16,334 nucleotides of DNA from a virus. Lineage: Duplodnaviria > Heunggongvirae > Uroviricota > Caudoviricetes. The translations under genes and the position numbers were made by a program. Location of the stretch: the IMG/VR virus record IMGVR_UViG_2706794682_000018. One strand, written 5' to 3'. A model generated the notes under the pieces. It saw only the letters and a program-made list of their open reading frames with translations. It was not told where the DNA came from and did not search any database. Below are positions 3,006-10,403 of the stretch, piece after piece. How positions within the stretch are numbered: position 1 is the first letter of the stretch; every line of letters starts with the position of its first letter.

Positions 3006-3171
3006 GCAGGAGTTTGAAAAAACGCTTGTGGAATGCGTAGTTACACACACGCTTAAAGTCTGCGTGTATCCACTCACCTATTTTGATTTGATGCAGAAAA
3101 TCGCAACTCTCCGGCGTCGCCGGGAGAAGTAATCCGGAAGAGGTTTGTTTGACCAGTTGTATATGTGCCAT
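2989..3171 (-). CDS. Hypothetical 60-aa ORF (MAHIQLVKQTSSGLLLPATPESCDFLHQIKIGEWIHADFKRVCNYAFHKRFFKLLQLASD)
   Basis: ATG at 3171-3169 with GGAGAAAG upstream. No family recognised. Its 3' end runs into inverted-repeat arm B. Confidence 0.2.
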   Translation of the reverse strand: MAHIQLVKQTSSGLLLPATPESCDFLHQIKIGEWIHADFKRVCNYAFHKRFFKLLQLASD

Positions 3172-3619: not shown

Positions 3620-3670
3620 AAACAACAAAAAACCCGCCGAAACGCTGAGAGATCACAGCGATGGGCGGGT
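3620..3670 (-). terminator. Intrinsic terminator of hok copy 2 (two-tier hairpin plus T-run)
   Basis: Outer stem CCCGCC/GGCGGG (3633-3638 / 3664-3669) with inner stem CGCTG/CAGCG, followed on the minus strand by TTTTTTGTTGTTTATTT. Homologous to the copy 1 terminator with an insertion in the loop. Confidence 0.5.
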
Positions 3671-3746: not shown

Positions 3747-4060
3747 TTACTTCCTGGNNNNNNNNNNNNNNNNNNNNNNNNNNNNNNNNNNNNNNNNNNN
3801 NNNNNNNNNNNNNNNNNNNNNNNNNNNNNNNNNNNNNNNNNNNNNNNNNNNNNNNNNNNNNNNNNNNNNNNNNNNNNNNNNNNNNNNNNNNNNNNNNNNN
3901 NNNNNNNNNNNNNNNNNNNNNNNNNNNNNNNNNNNNNNNNNNNNNNNNNNNNNNNNNNNNNNNNNNNNNNNNNNNNNNNNNNNNNNNNNNNNNNNNNNNN
4001 NNNNNNNNNNNNNNNNNNNNNNNNTGAAGCAGATAGCCTCAAGCACCCGCAGTCATTCTA
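3747..4060 (-). other. Second hok-family locus (paralogue of copy 1) whose coding region and leader are hidden by the N run 3758-4024
   Basis: 3661-3757 is homologous to the copy 1 hok 3' region 2410-2490. A stop TAA sits at 3749-3747 with ..RK just upstream. After the N run, 4025-4057 is homologous to copy 1 at 2780-2815 (CAGATAGCCTCAAGCACCCGC). Confidence 0.5.
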
Positions 4061-6543: not shown

Positions 6544-7401
6544 TTACCCCCTGAAGCCTGGCGGGATCGCACTATCCGGTAACGAGACGGTGTTAACCTG
6601 TCGGAGTAACGTCTCAGGTCGAACACCTTTCGGCGCGAACAAGCCCTGGTATTCATTGGCGATGCTGTGTCGAATCACCTGCTCAGGTGAAAAACCCTGC
6701 TGGCGGAATTTTTCCAGCTCCCGTATCGCCCCGTTAGCGCCCTGCTCCGTTCGAATCGGTTTTCGCAATGCCTGGCGAAATTCAACCCACTCACGCCAAA
6801 GCGAGACAGAAATCCAGTTCGGCAAAGCAATATCCAGAGGGTCAAACTTTTTGACACCTCGATTCCCCCGGGGGGGATTTAGGGGGGGATCTGTTTTTAG
6901 ATCTTTATCTGTATCTTTATTAGTTGCCTTTGTGTTGACATCATGTTCAAACACCACTTCAACATCTGTTTGAACACCTGTTAAATTTCTCTCTTGTTTT
7001 GTTTGAACATCTGCTTCCTTTCTGCTTCTTCTGGCCTGAACAGATGCTTTTCCTGCGGCTGATTTTTTGGTTAATTTTTCCCTGACTGATGCCAGATCTT
7101 CCTCAATCCGAAGATGCACCCATTCCTCGCCGTTATCGCAAAAAAACTCCTGCAAGGATGGTTCAACATCAGCCCATCGCTCGTTAGTCAGACGGGCAAT
7201 TTTTGCCAGCCTGTTTTTAGGTATTGGCTTTCCTGTTTGCCAGTAATTGAACATCAGCAACAAATACGCACCATGCTCCTCTGCTGACAAATGCATGGTG
7301 TCAGCCAGGTAATCAGCTATGTACAGTTGCATGTATGGTAATGCGGCCATAATTGCCCCGTATGATGCTGCCCGGTGGCTTAGAATAAGCACAAACAGCA
7401 T
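6544..7401 (-). CDS. ydaU: Replication initiation protein, DUF1376 (lambda O analogue)
   Basis: 285-codon ORF directly upstream of the DnaC-like gene; length matches recalled YdaU. Start codon uncertain (no clear ribosome-binding site at 7401). Confidence 0.8.
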   Translation of the reverse strand: MLFVLILSHRAASYGAIMAALPYMQLYIADYLADTMHLSAEEHGAYLLLMFNYWQTGKPIPKNRLAKIARLTNERWADVEPSLQEFFCDNGEEWVHLRIEEDLASVREKLTKKSAAGKASVQARRSRKEADVQTKQERNLTGVQTDVEVVFEHDVNTKATNKDTDKDLKTDPPLNPPRGNRGVKKFDPLDIALPNWISVSLWREWVEFRQALRKPIRTEQGANGAIRELEKFRQQGFSPEQVIRHSIANEYQGLFAPKGVRPETLLRQVNTVSLPDSAIPPGFRG

Positions 7402-7413
7402 GGAAACTTTTGC

Positions 7414-7836
7414 TTAATGAACAATGACAGAATCGTCGGAAGACCCGCCGCCGCTGAAATGCGCTTTCCGGTAAACGGCTTGGACTGCATCATCATGCGC
7501 ATCAATTGCCGTACTTAACGCTTCCTGCGCCGCCAGTAATGCACGGCGTTCCAGGGTATCGAAGATGCAGAGTCGGTGACGCAGCTCGCGCGGAAGGATT
7601 GCCAGAATTGCTGGGATCAGCTTCTGAATTTTTTCTCTTTGCGTTTTCGTTTCACCTTTCAACCAACGGTGATAGATATTCTGCTGATTATTCCAGTCCT
7701 TGCCTGGTACCAGGGGCAATTCGCCGCCCCCCTGGCGCAGATATTCTTCAGTAATGGCATTGGCTACCCATGCCTGCCCTTTTTCGGCTGCCAGGGCTAA
7801 CAACACTGACTCGATGTGCTCATGCTTGATTTTCAT
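7414..7836 (-). CDS. ydaT: Rac prophage YdaT-like protein (toxic when derepressed in K-12)
   Basis: 140 aa, ATG at 7836-7834 overlapping the ydaS stop (ATGA). Position and length as recalled for YdaT. Confidence 0.8.
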   Translation of the reverse strand: MKIKHEHIESVLLALAAEKGQAWVANAITEEYLRQGGGELPLVPGKDWNNQQNIYHRWLKGETKTQREKIQKLIPAILAILPRELRHRLCIFDTLERRALLAAQEALSTAIDAHDDAVQAVYRKAHFSGGGSSDDSVIVH

Positions 7837-8087
7837 GAATCAACTCCCATCAGCTTTTTCGTAGTAGTTTTATTTCTGCCAATAGTTAAAATTACATCAG
7901 CAGAAAATAATCCGTTTGATGCATGAGCGATTTTTTCAGCGTAATTTGTTTCGCCGGTATATTCTGTGCGAGGCAATTTTCCGTTATCCATCCATTTGTA
8001 GATTGCTCTTTGGCTGACACCACAAACGTCGGCCACAACAGAAACGCGAACAGTTTTGATTACATCTTCAAGTGTTTTCTGGTTCAT
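7833..8087 (-). CDS. ydaS: Cro-like helix-turn-helix regulator
   Basis: ATG at 8087-8085 with GAGGG upstream gives 84 aa (MNQKTLEDVIK...). The track ORF extends to a TTG at 8159 but that would run through the operator repeats. HTH segment VADVCGVSQRAIYKWMDNGKLP. Confidence 0.75.
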   Translation of the reverse strand: MNQKTLEDVIKTVRVSVVADVCGVSQRAIYKWMDNGKLPRTEYTGETNYAEKIAHASNGLFSADVILTIGRNKTTTKKLMGVDS

Positions 8088-8148
8088 ATCACCCTCACAA
8101 TGTGAACTTTGAGTACATGCTATAACAGAACTGACAGTACATTCAAGA
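8088..8148. promoter_or_regulatory. Divergent promoter/operator region between ydaS (cro-like) and racR (repressor)
   Basis: Two direct 15-bp repeats, GAACTTTGAGTACAT (8104-8118) and GAACTGACAGTACAT (8128-8142), spaced 24 bp apart. Candidate minus-strand promoter TTGAAT-N16-TATAGC overlaps them. Confidence 0.5.
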
Positions 8149-8586
8149 GTGAATATCATTGAACTTATGGTTCATGAAGATAAAGCGCGTAAAGAGTTCG
8201 CCAGTAGGCTTGCGCTAGCCTGTGAAAACGCTGGTTATGAACAACATGGAAGGCAGGCAGAAATTGCCCGTCGAATGAAATTAACACCAAAAGCGGTTAG
8301 CAAATGGTTTAATGGCGAAACAATTCCTCGCCGAGAGAAATTAAGGGAATTAGCAACACTCATTGGAACAACACCAACCTATCTTTTGGGAGAGGATACA
8401 GAAGAAAGTGGACAGGTACGTTTCTATCAGGAGTTAAATCCAAGACAAAAAATCATCATTGACCTTCTGGACGAGCTCCCTGACAGTGAGACAGATGAAC
8501 TTTTAAAAACTCTTGAGGAGAAAAAACAGAAGTACAATGCAATTTACGAAGAGCTAGCACGAAAGAAAAAACAAAAAGCCTCTTAA
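8149..8586 (+). CDS. racR: Prophage repressor, XRE-family helix-turn-helix (cI analogue)
   Basis: HTH GRQAEIARRMKLTPKAVSKWFNGE; divergent from the cro-like gene. Start uncertain: GTG 8149 or ATG 8167, neither with a clear ribosome-binding site (possibly leaderless, like lambda cI). Confidence 0.8.
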   Translation: MNIIELMVHEDKARKEFASRLALACENAGYEQHGRQAEIARRMKLTPKAVSKWFNGETIPRREKLRELATLIGTTPTYLLGEDTEESGQVRFYQELNPRQKIIIDLLDELPDSETDELLKTLEEKKQKYNAIYEELARKKKQKAS

Positions 8587-8654
8587 ACCAGCATAAATCC
8601 GGTAGCGTCCCCCTCCGGGTTTGTGCTTCACTTTATCCCATCTCATTTTTTTAC

Positions 8655-8715
8655 ACACAAAATGTACTTATAGTACTTTACATCAATGAACACAAAGTAC
8701 ATTATATACCTACCA
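8655..8715 (+). promoter_or_regulatory. Candidate left-operator/promoter region downstream of racR
   Basis: Third copy of the motif, GAACACAAAGTACAT (8688-8702), plus a palindrome GTACTTATAGTAC (8664-8676), in an AT-rich stretch with TTTACA and TATATA hexamers upstream of ydaG. Confidence 0.4.
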
Positions 8716-8876
8716 ACCCACCCCGCCCCACAGAACGCAGGGCAATACTTCGAGTTACCAGGCAGTGGTCAGGGGTTAAGTAGCCAGCCCGAGGCGTATG
8801 AACATGACGGCAGGGTTCAGATTTTGCAGTGCAGCAGGTTTCAGTTCCGCCACCCGGCGTTAAGGGGAGAGATAAG

Positions 8877-9011
8877 ATGGTGCATTACGAAGTAGTTCAG
8901 TATTTGATGGATTGTTGCGGTATCACTTACAACCAGGCTGTGCAGGCTTTACGCAGCAACGACTGGGATCTCTGGCAGGCAGAAGTCGCTATACACAGCA
9001 ACAAGATGTGA
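8877..9011 (+). CDS. ydaG: Small Rac prophage protein YdaG-like, 44 aa
   Basis: ATG at 8877 preceded by AGGGGAGA. MVHYEVVQYLMDCCGITYNQAVQALRSNDWDLWQAEVAIHSNKM. Length and position match recalled YdaG. Confidence 0.6.
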   Translation: MVHYEVVQYLMDCCGITYNQAVQALRSNDWDLWQAEVAIHSNKM

Positions 9012-9021
9012 GATTCGCAAA

Positions 9022-9177
9022 ATGCAAAAAATCGACCTCGGCAACAACGAATCCCTGGTGTGCGGCGTGTTCCCCAACCAGGATGGAACGTTCACTGCCA
9101 TGACGTATACCAAAAGCAAAACATTTAAAACCGAAACTGGTGCGCGCCGATGGTTGGAGAAGCACACAGTAAGCTAA
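9022..9177 (+). CDS. ydaF: Small Rac prophage protein YdaF-like, 51 aa (below the ORF-track length cut-off)
   Basis: Translated by hand: MQKIDLGNNESLVCGVFPNQDGTFTAMTYTKSKTFKTETGARRWLEKHTVS. Convergent with sieB, stops overlapping. Confidence 0.55.
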   Translation: MQKIDLGNNESLVCGVFPNQDGTFTAMTYTKSKTFKTETGARRWLEKHTVS

Positions 9178-9662
9178 CGATTAAAACGTCTACTCCTGCT
9201 GTTCCAGAATAACTTCATAAAATGGGAGTATTTTTCGGTGACGAGATAATAAGAACAGTTTGCGCTATCACTCTGATGTTGAATGATGCCCTTCCGTTCT
9301 AATTTTTTCATAACCGGGTTACGGCAAGGAGAAGTGATAATAAGATTTCCTGTTTTAAGGAAATCTTTAAATACAGCGATTTCTTTCTCAGATAAACGAA
9401 GCAATACTCGTTGCTCTGGTAGTAATGAATAATGCTTTTGAATATGTGCTCGCAATCTTGAGAAGGAAATGGCGACCACGAAAGAAAAGGCAAAAACGAT
9501 AATCTGAAAGAGCCAAGGTATTTCAGTATAAGCATTGAATGCGACAGTAAACTCTTTCGGTATCAGCCAGAGAGTGAGACCAAAAATGATAATCGTATAC
9601 ATAAGTATTTCGAGTGGCTCGTTAGCAAAAAGTTTCAACAATGGAGTAAATACATCCAACAT
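9174..9662 (-). CDS. sieB: Superinfection exclusion protein B
   Basis: 162 aa from ATG 9662-9660 (MLDVFTPLLKLF...), with hydrophobic membrane segments. The track ORF extends upstream to 9785. Position between ydaF and kilR as in Rac. Confidence 0.8.
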   Translation of the reverse strand: MLDVFTPLLKLFANEPLEILMYTIIIFGLTLWLIPKEFTVAFNAYTEIPWLFQIIVFAFSFVVAISFSRLRAHIQKHYSLLPEQRVLLRLSEKEIAVFKDFLKTGNLIITSPCRNPVMKKLERKGIIQHQSDSANCSYYLVTEKYSHFMKLFWNSRSRRFNR

Positions 9663-10153: not shown

Positions 10154-10403
10154 NNNNNNNNNNNNNNNNNNNNNNNNNNNNNNNNNNNNNNNNNNNNNNN
10201 NNNNNNNNNNNNNNNNNNNNNNNNNNNNNNNNNNNNNNNNNNNNNNNNNNNNNNNNNNNNNNNNNNNNNNNNNNNNNNNNNNNNNNNNNNNNNNNNNNNN
10301 NNNNNNNNNNNNNNNNNNNNNNNNNNNNNNNNNNNNNNNNNNNNNNNNNNNNNNNNNNNNNNNNNNNNNNNNNNNNNNNNNNNNNNNNNNNNNNNNNNNN
10401 NNN

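What the first reader, a model, noticed from the sequence alone, without database searches (positions are those of the whole stretch)
8088..8715. Three copies of a GAACnnnnAGTACAT motif plus a GTAC palindrome flanking the repressor gene
Two copies lie between racR and ydaS (8104-8118, 8128-8142) and one lies downstream of racR (8688-8702), next to the palindrome GTACTTATAGTAC (8664-8676). The layout mirrors lambda OR/OL. These are candidate RacR or YdaS operators and could define the immunity specificity of this prophage.
Basis: seen in the sequence. Interest (0 to 1): 0.45.

Follow-up and report, generated by a model that had tools for sequence, protein, structure and literature searches.

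The report
HK022-type operators in a Rac prophage
The repeats are real and are almost certainly the repressor/Cro binding sites of this prophage's genetic switch, but the switch is a swapped-in copy of the well-studied phage HK022 type rather than the K-12 RacR/YdaS type, so the result is ordinary and only mildly new.

Summary
They are better read as five 15-bp pseudo-palindromes, TGwAC-N5-GTwCA. Three lie between the divergent genes: 8103-8117, 8127-8141 and 8160-8174. Two lie downstream of the repressor, at 8663-8677 (the "palindrome") and 8687-8701.

The genes are not racR and ydaS. An 868-bp cassette (7843-8710) replaces the K-12 Rac immunity region. Its cro-like gene is 62% identical to HK022 Cro. 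The N-terminal part of its repressor is 47% identical to HK022 CI, and the C-terminus is a short DicA-like tail instead of a LexA-type cleavage domain.

The five sites align one-to-one with the operators annotated in HK022, with the same 24/33/24-bp spacing and the same relation to pR and pL. A weight matrix built only from HK022 sites recovers exactly these five as the top hits in the window. The half-sites are invariant across related phages of five genera and are conserved within the E. coli population.

Verdict: OR/OL operators of an HK022-type switch, a new member of a known kind. No binding was tested.

The parts
7843..8710 (.). Immunity cassette (cro-like gene, OR, repressor, hairpin, OL/pL) that replaces the K-12 Rac racR-ydaS cassette
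   Evidence: blastn of the window against K-12 Rac: 99% identity ends at 7842 and resumes at 8711. ydaT next door is 99% identical to K-12 YdaT. The same cassette is 97.6-98.5% identical in phage records Tritos and vB_EcoS-666R9/673R7/613R10.
7833..8087 (-). cro-like gene (84 aa), a homologue of HK022 Cro and not of YdaS
   Evidence: 62% identity to HK022 Cro, E 2e-34. Against K-12 YdaS there is only an 18-aa HTH match, E 0.028. The start at 8087 is supported by the family alignment and by the RefSeq annotation of the near-identical locus.
8103..8117 (.). OR1, TGAACTTTGAGTACA; lies just downstream of the pR -10 and covers the expected pR start
   Evidence: Aligns with HK022 oR at X16093 3057-3071. 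HK022-derived PWM score 17.0 bits.
8119..8124 (-). pR -10 (TATAGC on the minus strand, preceded by TGT, so extended -10-like)
   Evidence: Position homologous to the annotated HK022 pR -10 at 3050-3055. The A at hexamer position 2 (8123) is invariant in 8 phages. Inferred, not mapped.
8127..8141 (.). OR2, AGAACTGACAGTACA; sits in the pR spacer and overlaps the putative -35 of the repressor promoter
   Evidence: Aligns with HK022 oR at 3033-3047. PWM score 13.8 bits. GAACTGA.AGT is invariant in 8 phages.
8141..8146 (-). pR -35 (TTGAAT on the minus strand), 16-nt spacer
   Evidence: Homologous to the annotated HK022 pR -35 at 3028-3033. Inferred.
8154..8159 (+). Putative -10 (TATCAT) of the repressor maintenance promoter. 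With -35 CTGACA at 8131-8136, it predicts a leaderless mRNA starting at about ATG 8167
   Evidence: Promoter scan, 10 of 12 matches. T8154, A8155 and T8159 (the T-A---T pattern of a -10) are invariant in 8 phages. No Shine-Dalgarno sequence is visible upstream of the ATG. Inferred.
8160..8174 (.). OR3, TGAACTTATGGTTCA; its centre is the repressor ATG (8167-8169).
   Evidence: Identical to HK022 OR3 and OR1. Best PWM hit in the window, 19.4 bits.
8167..8586 (+). Repressor (139 aa): an HK022-CI-like HTH domain plus a DicA-like C-terminal tail, with no peptidase S24 domain
   Evidence: 47% identity to HK022 CI over residues 4-102, E 6e-32. 29% identity to K-12 DicA over residues 30-137, E 5e-15. 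NCBIfam DicA model NF007257 at 2e-15 but below its cut-off. Pfam finds only HTH families. The MV start is invariant in relatives.
8590..8627 (+). Stable hairpin just after the repressor stop codon; a possible terminator
   Evidence: RNA fold gives -19.4 kcal/mol, z = -5.6, and 0 of 200 shuffles fold as well. There is no clean T-run, and the terminator scan did not call it.
8663..8677 (.).
   Evidence: Aligns with HK022 oL at 2225-2239. PWM score 18.1 bits.
8677..8705 (+). pL: -35 TTTACA (8677-8682), 17-nt spacer, -10 CATTAT (8700-8705), reading into ydaG-ydaF...recET
   Evidence: Promoter scan. Homologous to the annotated HK022 pL -35 and -10. CTTTACA is invariant in 6 phages.
8687..8701 (.). 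OL1, TGAACACAAAGTACA; sits in the pL spacer and overlaps the -10
   Evidence: Aligns with HK022 oL at 2201-2215. PWM score 12.3 bits.

Best explanation
The repeats are the operators of an HK022-type lambdoid immunity switch that was swapped into a Rac prophage as an 868-bp cassette (7843-8710). There are five 15-bp pseudo-palindromic sites (TGwAC-N5-GTwCA). OR1, OR2 and OR3 lie between the divergent cro-like and repressor genes. OL2 and OL1 lie downstream of the repressor at pL. Each site is inferred to bind a dimer of the 139-aa repressor, and in the lytic state a dimer of the 84-aa Cro homologue, through their helix-turn-helix domains. In this model the 5-bp outer half-sites are the contacted bases and the central 5 bp are not read. 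Repressor on OR1+OR2 (centres 24 bp apart) would block pR, and with it cro-ydaT-ydaU-ydaV. Repressor on OL1+OL2 (also 24 bp apart) would block pL, and with it ydaG/ydaF...kilR, recET. OR3 lies on the start of a probably leaderless repressor mRNA and would give negative autoregulation, or Cro-mediated shut-off. What is shown: the sites, their non-random clustering, their homology and conservation, the gene homologies and the cassette boundaries. What is inferred: protein binding, promoter positions, the leaderless start, cooperativity and OR-OL looping. The repressor C-terminus is a DicA-like tail rather than the LexA-type domain of HK022 CI, so RecA-dependent cleavage is not expected, and any cooperativity must use a different interface.
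For: Non-randomness: there are 3 exact motif copies against 0.01 expected.

Independent recovery: a PWM built only from six HK022 sites ranks exactly these five as the top 5 of the window (19.4-12.3 bits). The sixth hit scores 8.1, and shuffles give 0.33 hits at that threshold.

Homology to annotated operators: GenBank X16093 (HK022) annotates three oR and two oL 15-bp repressor sites together with pR and pL. The window sites align to them one-to-one with the same spacing (24/33 and 24 bp) and the same relation to the promoters. HK75 carries the same annotation. phi24B/933W has annotated OR1-3 and OL1-2 of the same form.

Protein homology: Cro is 62% identical and the repressor DNA-binding domain 47% identical to the HK022 proteins. 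The recognition-helix stretch is nearly identical (TPKAVSKWFNGETIPR against TPKAISKWFNGESIPR).

Phylogenetic footprint: in 8 phages from E. coli, Klebsiella, Citrobacter, Providencia and Salmonella, the invariant columns fall on the half-sites and on the -10/-35 positions. The 24-bp and 32-33-bp OR spacing recurs.

Population footprint: among 42 OR+OL haplotypes from 79 IMG/VR loci, 5 of 50 half-site positions are polymorphic, against 9 of 25 central and 28 of 83 outside positions (Fisher p = 0.001; non-singleton p = 0.0004).

Cassette logic: all five sites lie inside the cassette that replaces the K-12 racR-ydaS region. K-12's own cassette carries RacR-type sites at the equivalent OR and OL places.

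Literature: HK022 CI binds adjacent operators cooperatively and loops OR to OL (PMC8053113, citing Carlson & Little 1993).
Against: No binding, transcription-start or immunity data exist for this cassette; everything rests on homology and conservation. The repressor lacks the C-terminal domain that presumably carries cooperativity in HK022 CI, going by what is known for lambda-type repressors, so cooperative occupancy at the 24-bp pairs is unproven. OR2 is centred about 33 bp upstream of the predicted repressor mRNA start and overlaps its putative -35. Whether OR2 occupancy activates or represses the maintenance promoter therefore cannot be said. The pR -10 (TATAGC) is weak. HK022's OL3 and its distal operator O_FR are absent here. 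The haplotypes in the population test are related, so the Fisher p-values are only indicative.
Confidence: 0.87

Rival explanations
1. The literal first reading: these are operators of K-12-type RacR and YdaS.
For: The cassette sits in the position of racR-ydaS within a Rac prophage integrated next to ttcA, flanked by ydaT/ydaU/ydaV and ydaF/sieB/kilR/recET.
Against: The repressor matches K-12 RacR over only 33 aa of the HTH (E 1e-4). The cro-like protein matches YdaS over 18 aa (E 0.028). Footprinted RacR operators are TTAGGC-n3-GCCTAA (PMC9638921), and the window has none even at 2 mismatches. DNA homology to K-12 stops at 7842 and resumes at 8711.
Confidence: 0.02
2. The sites are relics. 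The cassette is a decayed switch in a cryptic prophage, and the domain-swapped repressor no longer uses them, or only some of them.
For: Rac is cryptic in K-12. The repressor has lost the HK022-type C-terminal domain, and OL3 and O_FR are missing.
Against: Both open reading frames are intact, and the repressor is 99-100% identical in 80 IMG/VR viral contigs that sit in two different flanking contexts. The same cassette occurs in four deposited phage genomes. The half-sites are conserved while the central and spacer bases vary freely. At least 1047 of 5426 complete E. coli genomes carry it.
Confidence: 0.06
3. The unit is a true direct repeat (GAACnnnnAGTACAT) bound head-to-tail by a different protein, for example a CII-like (YdaT), Xis-like or host factor, rather than palindromic operators bound by repressor/Cro dimers.
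For: Three copies are in the same orientation. GAAC and GTAC differ, which makes those sites asymmetric.
Against: OR3 (TGAACT-TAT-GGTTCA) and OL2 (TGTACT-TAT-AGTACT) are symmetric. Relatives interchange GAAC, GTAC and GTTC on either arm. The footprinted YdaT site is a different sequence, TTGATTN6AATCAA, and it occurs separately at 7826-7843 (PMC9986795). The sites overlap pR and pL as operators do.
Confidence: 0.04
4. Chance clustering of an AT-rich short motif in intergenic DNA.
For: GTAC-containing heptamers are short. AGTACAT alone reaches 4 copies in 3 of 200 shuffles.
Against: The 15-mer pattern never reaches 3 exact copies in 200 shuffles. An independent HK022-derived PWM recovers the same five sites. 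Sequence and spacing are conserved across genera.
Confidence: 0.01

Closest known systems
Phage HK022 immunity region (CI, Cro, OR1-3, OL1-3, O_FR; Oberto et al. 1989, GenBank X16093; Carlson & Little 1993)
   Same: Divergent repressor and cro genes. Three 15-bp OR sites at 24- and 33-bp centre spacing, with OR3 on the repressor ATG. OL1 and OL2 are 24 bp apart and straddle the pL -35/spacer. OR3 is an identical sequence. Cro is 62% identical and the repressor DNA-binding domain 47% identical.
   Different: The repressor C-terminus is a roughly 55-aa DicA-like tail instead of the LexA/S24-type domain. There is no OL3 and no O_FR. The context is Rac (ydaT instead of cII; no nun or put sites). 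OR1, OL1 and the central bases differ.
Stx phage 933W / phi24B immunity region (GenBank EF517298 annotation)
   Same: The same site form, (C/T)GwAC-N5-GTwC(A/G), and the same three OR plus two OL layout as here. The repressor N-terminus is 51% identical over 73 aa.
   Different: The outer base is mostly C rather than T. The repressor has the long C-terminal domain. stk lies between cI and OL.
Lambda OR/OL
   Same: The logic is the same: multiple dimer sites overlapping divergent pR and maintenance promoters plus a distal OL at pL, a 24-bp spacing of the cooperative pair, and a leaderless repressor mRNA (established knowledge; PMC8630535 for the leaderless cI comparison).
   Different: Lambda has 17-bp operators of unrelated sequence, three OL sites, OR2 placed to activate pRM, and an S24-type cleavable repressor.
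K-12 Rac RacR-YdaS and CP-933P PaaR2-YdaS switches
   Same: The same chromosomal slot and neighbours (ydaT onward). The repressors are short and have no LexA-type domain. Operators overlap the promoters, and one sits on the repressor start codon (PMC9638921, PMC8630535).
   Different: The proteins are unrelated beyond the HTH fold. The operator sequences differ: TTAGGC-n3-GCCTAA for RacR and GTTTAGTAA-type inverted repeats for PaaR2/YdaS.
DicA repressor of the Qin prophage
   Same: The overall length and the C-terminal helical tail (LxPxxxxxxxLxxxLPxSExD...) are alignable, at 29% identity over 108 aa.
   Different: The score is below the NCBIfam DicA cut-off (56.8 against 101 bits). The DNA-binding domain is closer to HK022 CI. 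The dicC-dicA intergenic DNA shows no TGwAC-N5-GTwCA sites.

Membership tests
HK022-type lambdoid immunity region | Divergent repressor and cro genes homologous to HK022 CI (DNA-binding domain) and Cro | tested here: met
   Repressor residues 4-102 are 47% identical to HK022 CI, E 6e-32. Cro is 62% identical, E 2e-34.
HK022-type lambdoid immunity region | Three 15-bp OR sites and an OL pair matching the HK022 operators in sequence, spacing and relation to pR/pL | tested here: met
   The HK022-only PWM returns the five sites as the top 5 hits. They align one-to-one with the X16093 annotation. Spacings are 24/33/24 bp.
HK022-type lambdoid immunity region | Repressor with a LexA/S24-type C-terminal oligomerisation and autocleavage domain | tested here: not met
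   Pfam finds only HTH families. The alignment shows the protein ends where the HK022 C-terminal domain begins. The tail resembles DicA.
HK022-type lambdoid immunity region | Accessory operators OL3 and O_FR | tested here: not met
   The best PWM score in 8587-8662 is -1.8 bits and in 7400-8100 is 6.4 bits, whereas HK75, the Klebsiella phage and the Citrobacter phage each have an OL3 candidate of 11.5-16.1 bits.
HK022-type lambdoid immunity region | Repressor and Cro physically bind the sites, cooperatively for adjacent sites | not testable with these tools
   Requires EMSA or footprinting. It is known for HK022 itself (PMC8053113, citing Carlson & Little 1993).
K-12 Rac RacR/YdaS switch | Orthologues of RacR and YdaS | tested here: not met
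   Only HTH-level matches. DNA homology breaks at 7842 and 8711.
K-12 Rac RacR/YdaS switch | TTAGGC-n3-GCCTAA operators (PMC9638921) | tested here: not met
   0 matches in the window at up to 2 mismatches. K-12 has 5 such sites around racR.
DicA repressor family (NCBIfam NF007257) | Score above the curated cut-off of the model | tested here: not met
   56.8 bits against a cut-off of 101, with the alignment covering residues 29-137. Resemblance only.

The most novel reading that the evidence does not exclude
This Rac-variant cassette carries a repressor with an HK022-like recognition helix on a DicA-like tail that RecA should not be able to cleave. At least 1047 of 5426 complete E. coli genomes hold it. 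It could act as an SOS-proof immunity factor against HK022-immunity phages. It could also cross-repress, or block induction of, co-resident or incoming prophages with the same operators, possibly including some 933W-like Stx phages. On that reading it is a domesticated defence or regulatory module rather than a mere remnant.
Probability: 0.2. Interest if true: 0.5.

Novelty: new member of a known kind. Interest (0 to 1): 0.22.

Why it matters
It corrects an annotation trap. Many E. coli 'Rac' prophages do not carry the RacR/YdaS switch studied in K-12. They carry an HK022-type switch instead, so results on RacR essentiality, RacR operators and C-protein cross-talk should not be transferred to those strains. 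It also gives a ready-made operator map for that allele: five sites and three promoters. Finally, it shows a natural domain swap that puts HK022-like DNA specificity on a DicA-like tail with no cleavage domain, which is a convenient case for asking how cooperativity and induction work without a LexA-type domain. Beyond that, the biology is textbook lambdoid regulation.

Tried and rejected
- I searched the window for K-12 RacR operators and found none.
- I compared the sites with the CP-933P PaaR2/YdaS operators (consensus GTTTAGTAA; PMC8630535); the sequences are unrelated.
- I looked for solved structures. The repressor gave only weak P22 C2 / LexA HTH hits and the cro-like protein gave none.
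- I looked for an OL3 or O_FR equivalent and found none.
- The terminator scan found nothing in 7700-9300, although a stable hairpin exists at 8590-8627.
- I tried to read Carlson & Little 1993 (PMC206910); the paper is not held. HK022 operator biochemistry is therefore cited second-hand through PMC8053113 and the GenBank annotations.
- I searched the literature for the RefSeq protein accessions of this repressor and cro-like protein and found no papers.
- The IMG/VR scan with a profile returned only 99-100% identical copies. That was useful for population variation but not for distant relatives.
- The long 108-aa minus-strand ORF (7833-8159), annotated as Cro in phage Tritos, was rejected in favour of the 84-aa form. 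The long form would start inside OR, and the family alignment begins at the ATG at 8087.

Full report
**1. The observation.**
The three copies of GAACnnnnAGTACAT are at 8104-8118, 8128-8142 and 8688-8702, and GTACTTATAGTAC is at 8664-8676, exactly as described. The pattern has 3 exact matches in the 16,334-base window against 0.01 expected, and no shuffle out of 200 reaches 3. With up to two mismatches there are 9 matches against 3.0 expected (0 of 200 shuffles). Seven of the nine lie in the two small regions 8104-8175 and 8662-8702. There is a further copy at 8160-8174, and the "palindrome" is itself a one-mismatch copy on the opposite strand.

**2. What the surroundings are.**
- The window is a Rac-type prophage.
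  - A locus 99.8% identical over 7800-8900 in E. coli strain 1428 has the full Rac gene order, integrated next to ttcA: ydaV, ydaU, ydaT, two HTH genes, ydaF, sieB, kilR, ydaE, racC, recE, recT, ralR, xisR, intR.
  - YdaT is 139/140 identical to K-12 YdaT.
  - The repressor matches K-12 RacR only over 33 residues of the helix-turn-helix (E 1e-4). The cro-like protein matches YdaS over 18 residues (E 0.028).
  - blastn against K-12 Rac shows 99% identity up to 7842 and again from 8711, with nothing in between.
  - An 868-bp cassette, 7843-8710, has therefore replaced the K-12 racR-ydaS cassette. All the repeats lie inside it, the last ending 9 bp from its right edge.
- The footprinted K-12 RacR operators are TTAGGC-n3-GCCTAA (PMC9638921). 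The window has none even at two mismatches.
- CP-933P PaaR2/YdaS operators (consensus GTTTAGTAA; PMC8630535) are also unrelated in sequence.

**3. What the cassette is.**
- Searches of the phage collection found the same cassette at 97.6-98.5% identity in Escherichia phages Tritos and vB_EcoS-666R9/673R7/613R10. They also found about 71% DNA similarity to the immunity region of phage HK022 and to related phages of Klebsiella, Citrobacter, Salmonella and Providencia.
- The cro-like protein is 62% identical to HK022 Cro.
- The repressor is a mosaic.
  - Residues 4-102 are 47% identical to HK022 CI, and the recognition-helix stretch is almost unchanged (TPKAVSKWFNGETIPR against TPKAISKWFNGESIPR).
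  - HK022 CI continues into a LexA-type domain. This protein instead ends in a short charged helical tail that aligns with DicA of the Qin prophage (29% identity over residues 30-137, E 5e-15).
  - The NCBIfam DicA model scores 2e-15 but is below its cut-off.
  - Pfam sees only helix-turn-helix families.

**4. The repeats are the HK022 operators.**
- GenBank X16093 (HK022) annotates three 15-bp "oR potential repressor binding sites", two "oL" sites, and the -35/-10 regions of pR and pL. HK75 carries the same annotation plus OL3 and O_FR.
- Read in the window's orientation, the sites compare as follows.

| Site | HK022 sequence | Window sequence | Window coordinates |
|---|---|---|---|
| OR1 | TGAACTTATGGTTCA | TGAACTTTGAGTACA | 8103-8117 |
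| OR2 | GGAACTGATAGTACA | AGAACTGACAGTACA | 8127-8141 |
| OR3 | TGAACTTATGGTTCA | TGAACTTATGGTTCA | 8160-8174 |
| OL2 | TGTACTATTGGTACT | TGTACTTATAGTACT | 8663-8677 |
| OL1 | TGAACTTTAAGTACA | TGAACACAAAGTACA | 8687-8701 |

- Centre-to-centre spacings are 24 and 33 bp in OR and 24 bp in OL in both phages.
- The unit is therefore a 15-bp pseudo-palindrome, TGwAC-N5-GTwCA. Because GTAC is self-complementary and GAAC differs from it by one base, the sites can look like direct repeats.
- A weight matrix built only from six HK022 sites, with nothing taken from the window, ranks exactly these five as the top five of the window (19.4, 18.1, 17.0, 13.8 and 12.3 bits). The next hit scores 8.1. Shuffled windows give on average 0.33 hits at the fifth score.

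**5. Conservation.**
- An alignment of the OR region from eight phages (window, Tritos, HK022, HK75, Klebsiella phage 2 LV-2017, Citrobacter phage Omnitron, Providencia phage PSTNGR2lys, Salmonella phage SI8) is 75% identical overall. Its invariant columns fall on the following features.
  - the half-sites of all three operators;
  - position 2 of the pR -10 (8123) and the first T of the pR -35 (8146);
  - T8154, A8155 and T8159, the T-A---T signature of a -10 hexamer on the repressor strand;
  - the ATG inside OR3.
- The OL alignment shows invariant TGTAC..GTACTTTACA and TGAAC....GTACAT.
- The 24-bp and 32-33-bp OR geometry recurs in every relative examined, and the 24-bp OL pair recurs where OL was within the fetched DNA.
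- phi24B/933W, whose operators are annotated in EF517298, uses the same form and has the same three OR plus two OL layout as this window. Examples are CGTACTTTCAGTACG and CGAACTATTGGTTCA.
- Within the E. coli population, 80 IMG/VR loci encode a 99-100% identical repressor. They give 42 distinct OR+OL haplotypes.

| Position class | Positions | Polymorphic | Minor-allele haplotype counts |
|---|---|---|---|
| Half-site | 50 | 5 | 6 |
| Centre of site | 25 | 9 | 61 |
| Outside sites | 83 | 28 | 82 |

- Fisher p is 0.001 for any polymorphism and 0.0004 for non-singletons. The haplotypes are related, so these p-values are indicative only.
- The pattern fits sites whose outer pentamers are read and whose centre is not: conserved outer pentamers with a freely varying centre.

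**6. How it most likely works.**
- *pR.* By position homology with the HK022 annotation and from the promoter scan, pR runs on the minus strand. Its -35 is TTGAAT at 8146-8141, the spacer is 16 nt, and the -10 is TATAGC at 8124-8119, preceded by TGT. OR2 fills the spacer and OR1 covers the start. The cro-like gene starts at 8087 behind a GAGGGTG ribosome-binding site.
- *pL.* On the plus strand the -35 is TTTACA at 8677-8682 and the -10 is CATTAT at 8700-8705. OL2 abuts the -35 and OL1 lies in the spacer. Transcription runs into ydaG, ydaF and on to kilR and recET.
- *Repressor promoter.* The likely promoter is -35 CTGACA at 8131-8136 and -10 TATCAT at 8154-8159. That places the start at about 8166-8167, the A of the ATG in the centre of OR3, with no Shine-Dalgarno sequence upstream. 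This would be a leaderless mRNA, as for lambda cI, paaR2 and racR (PMC8630535, PMC9638921).
- *The inferred switch.*
  - Repressor dimers on OR1+OR2 and OL1+OL2 silence both early operons.
  - OR3 gives autoregulation or Cro-mediated shut-off.
  - HK022 CI binds adjacent sites cooperatively and loops OR to OL (PMC8053113), so something similar may occur here over about 540 bp.
- *Uncertainties.* This repressor lacks the HK022 C-terminal domain, so any cooperativity must come from the DicA-like tail, and RecA-stimulated cleavage is not expected. OR2 overlaps the putative -35 of the repressor promoter, so its effect on that promoter is open. None of these steps has been tested for this cassette.

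**7. Comparison and novelty.**
- The element works like, and is homologous to, the HK022/933W-type lambdoid operator sets.
- It departs from a strict HK022 immunity region in three ways:
  - the repressor C-terminal domain is different;
  - OL3 is absent;
  - O_FR is absent.
- It is not a member of the K-12 RacR/YdaS system.
- No paper in the library mentions the RefSeq accessions of these two proteins.
- It is common: at least 1047 of 5426 complete E. coli genomes hold 80% or more of 7800-8900.
- It sits in at least two flanking contexts, ydaT-type and another type that is probably Rha-type as in Tritos.
- I rate it a new member of a known kind, with low to moderate interest. Its main value is corrective (Rac is not always RacR) and as a natural DNA-binding-domain / tail swap.

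Noticed in passing
window 7826-7843: TTGATTTTCATGAATCAA is an exact match to the inverted repeat TTGATTN6AATCAA that was footprinted for YdaT of CP-933P (PMC9986795). It straddles the cro stop and the ydaT start, right at the left cassette boundary. K-12 has the same site with one mismatch (TTGATTTTCATGAATCAT). It is probably the YdaT (CII-analogue) operator, and it stays with ydaT when the repressor/cro cassette is exchanged.
   Followed up: partly
L001 (K-12 NC_000913) 3630-3644 and 3655-3669, i.e. about 100 bp downstream of racR: There are two RacR-type sites (ATAGGTAATGCCTAA and ATAGGCTATGCCTAA) 25 bp apart, just inside the K-12-specific cassette boundary. They mirror the OL pair of the window. 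The RacR papers I consulted describe only the racR-ydaS intergenic operators, so this may be an undescribed OL of K-12 Rac.
   Followed up: partly
window 8590-8627: A stable RNA hairpin lies directly after the repressor stop codon (-19.4 kcal/mol, z = -5.6). It has no clean T-run and the terminator scan did not call it. It may be a terminator separating the repressor transcript from pL.
   Followed up: partly
window 8167-8586: The repressor is a natural chimera of an HK022-CI-like DNA-binding domain and a DicA-like C-terminal tail. DNA similarity to HK022 covers 7992-8237 and 8646-8706 but not the segment between them, so the swap also removed HK022's OL3.
   Followed up: yes
window 8647-8710 and loci L013-L092: The OL/pL region is unusually polymorphic among otherwise 99-100% identical cassettes (dozens of haplotypes in 80 loci). 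The changes are concentrated in the operator centres and the inter-operator spacer. OR2 and OR3 are invariant in all 80 loci.
   Followed up: partly
window 7833-8159 (minus strand): Phage Tritos annotates its Cro as the long 108-aa ORF that starts inside OR. RefSeq and the family alignment support the 84-aa form that starts at 8087. The Tritos record probably has a mis-called start.
   Followed up: yes
window 3758-4024 and 10154-10403: There are two masked runs of N (267 and 250 bases). The second interrupts the region between sieB and kilR, where K-12 has the small RNA KilS.
   Followed up: no
window 8868-9011: The small ORF downstream of pL (YdaG-like, 47 aa) gives a weak UBA-like domain hit (PF14555, E 4e-5) and matches phrog_14709, which has no known function.
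   Followed up: no
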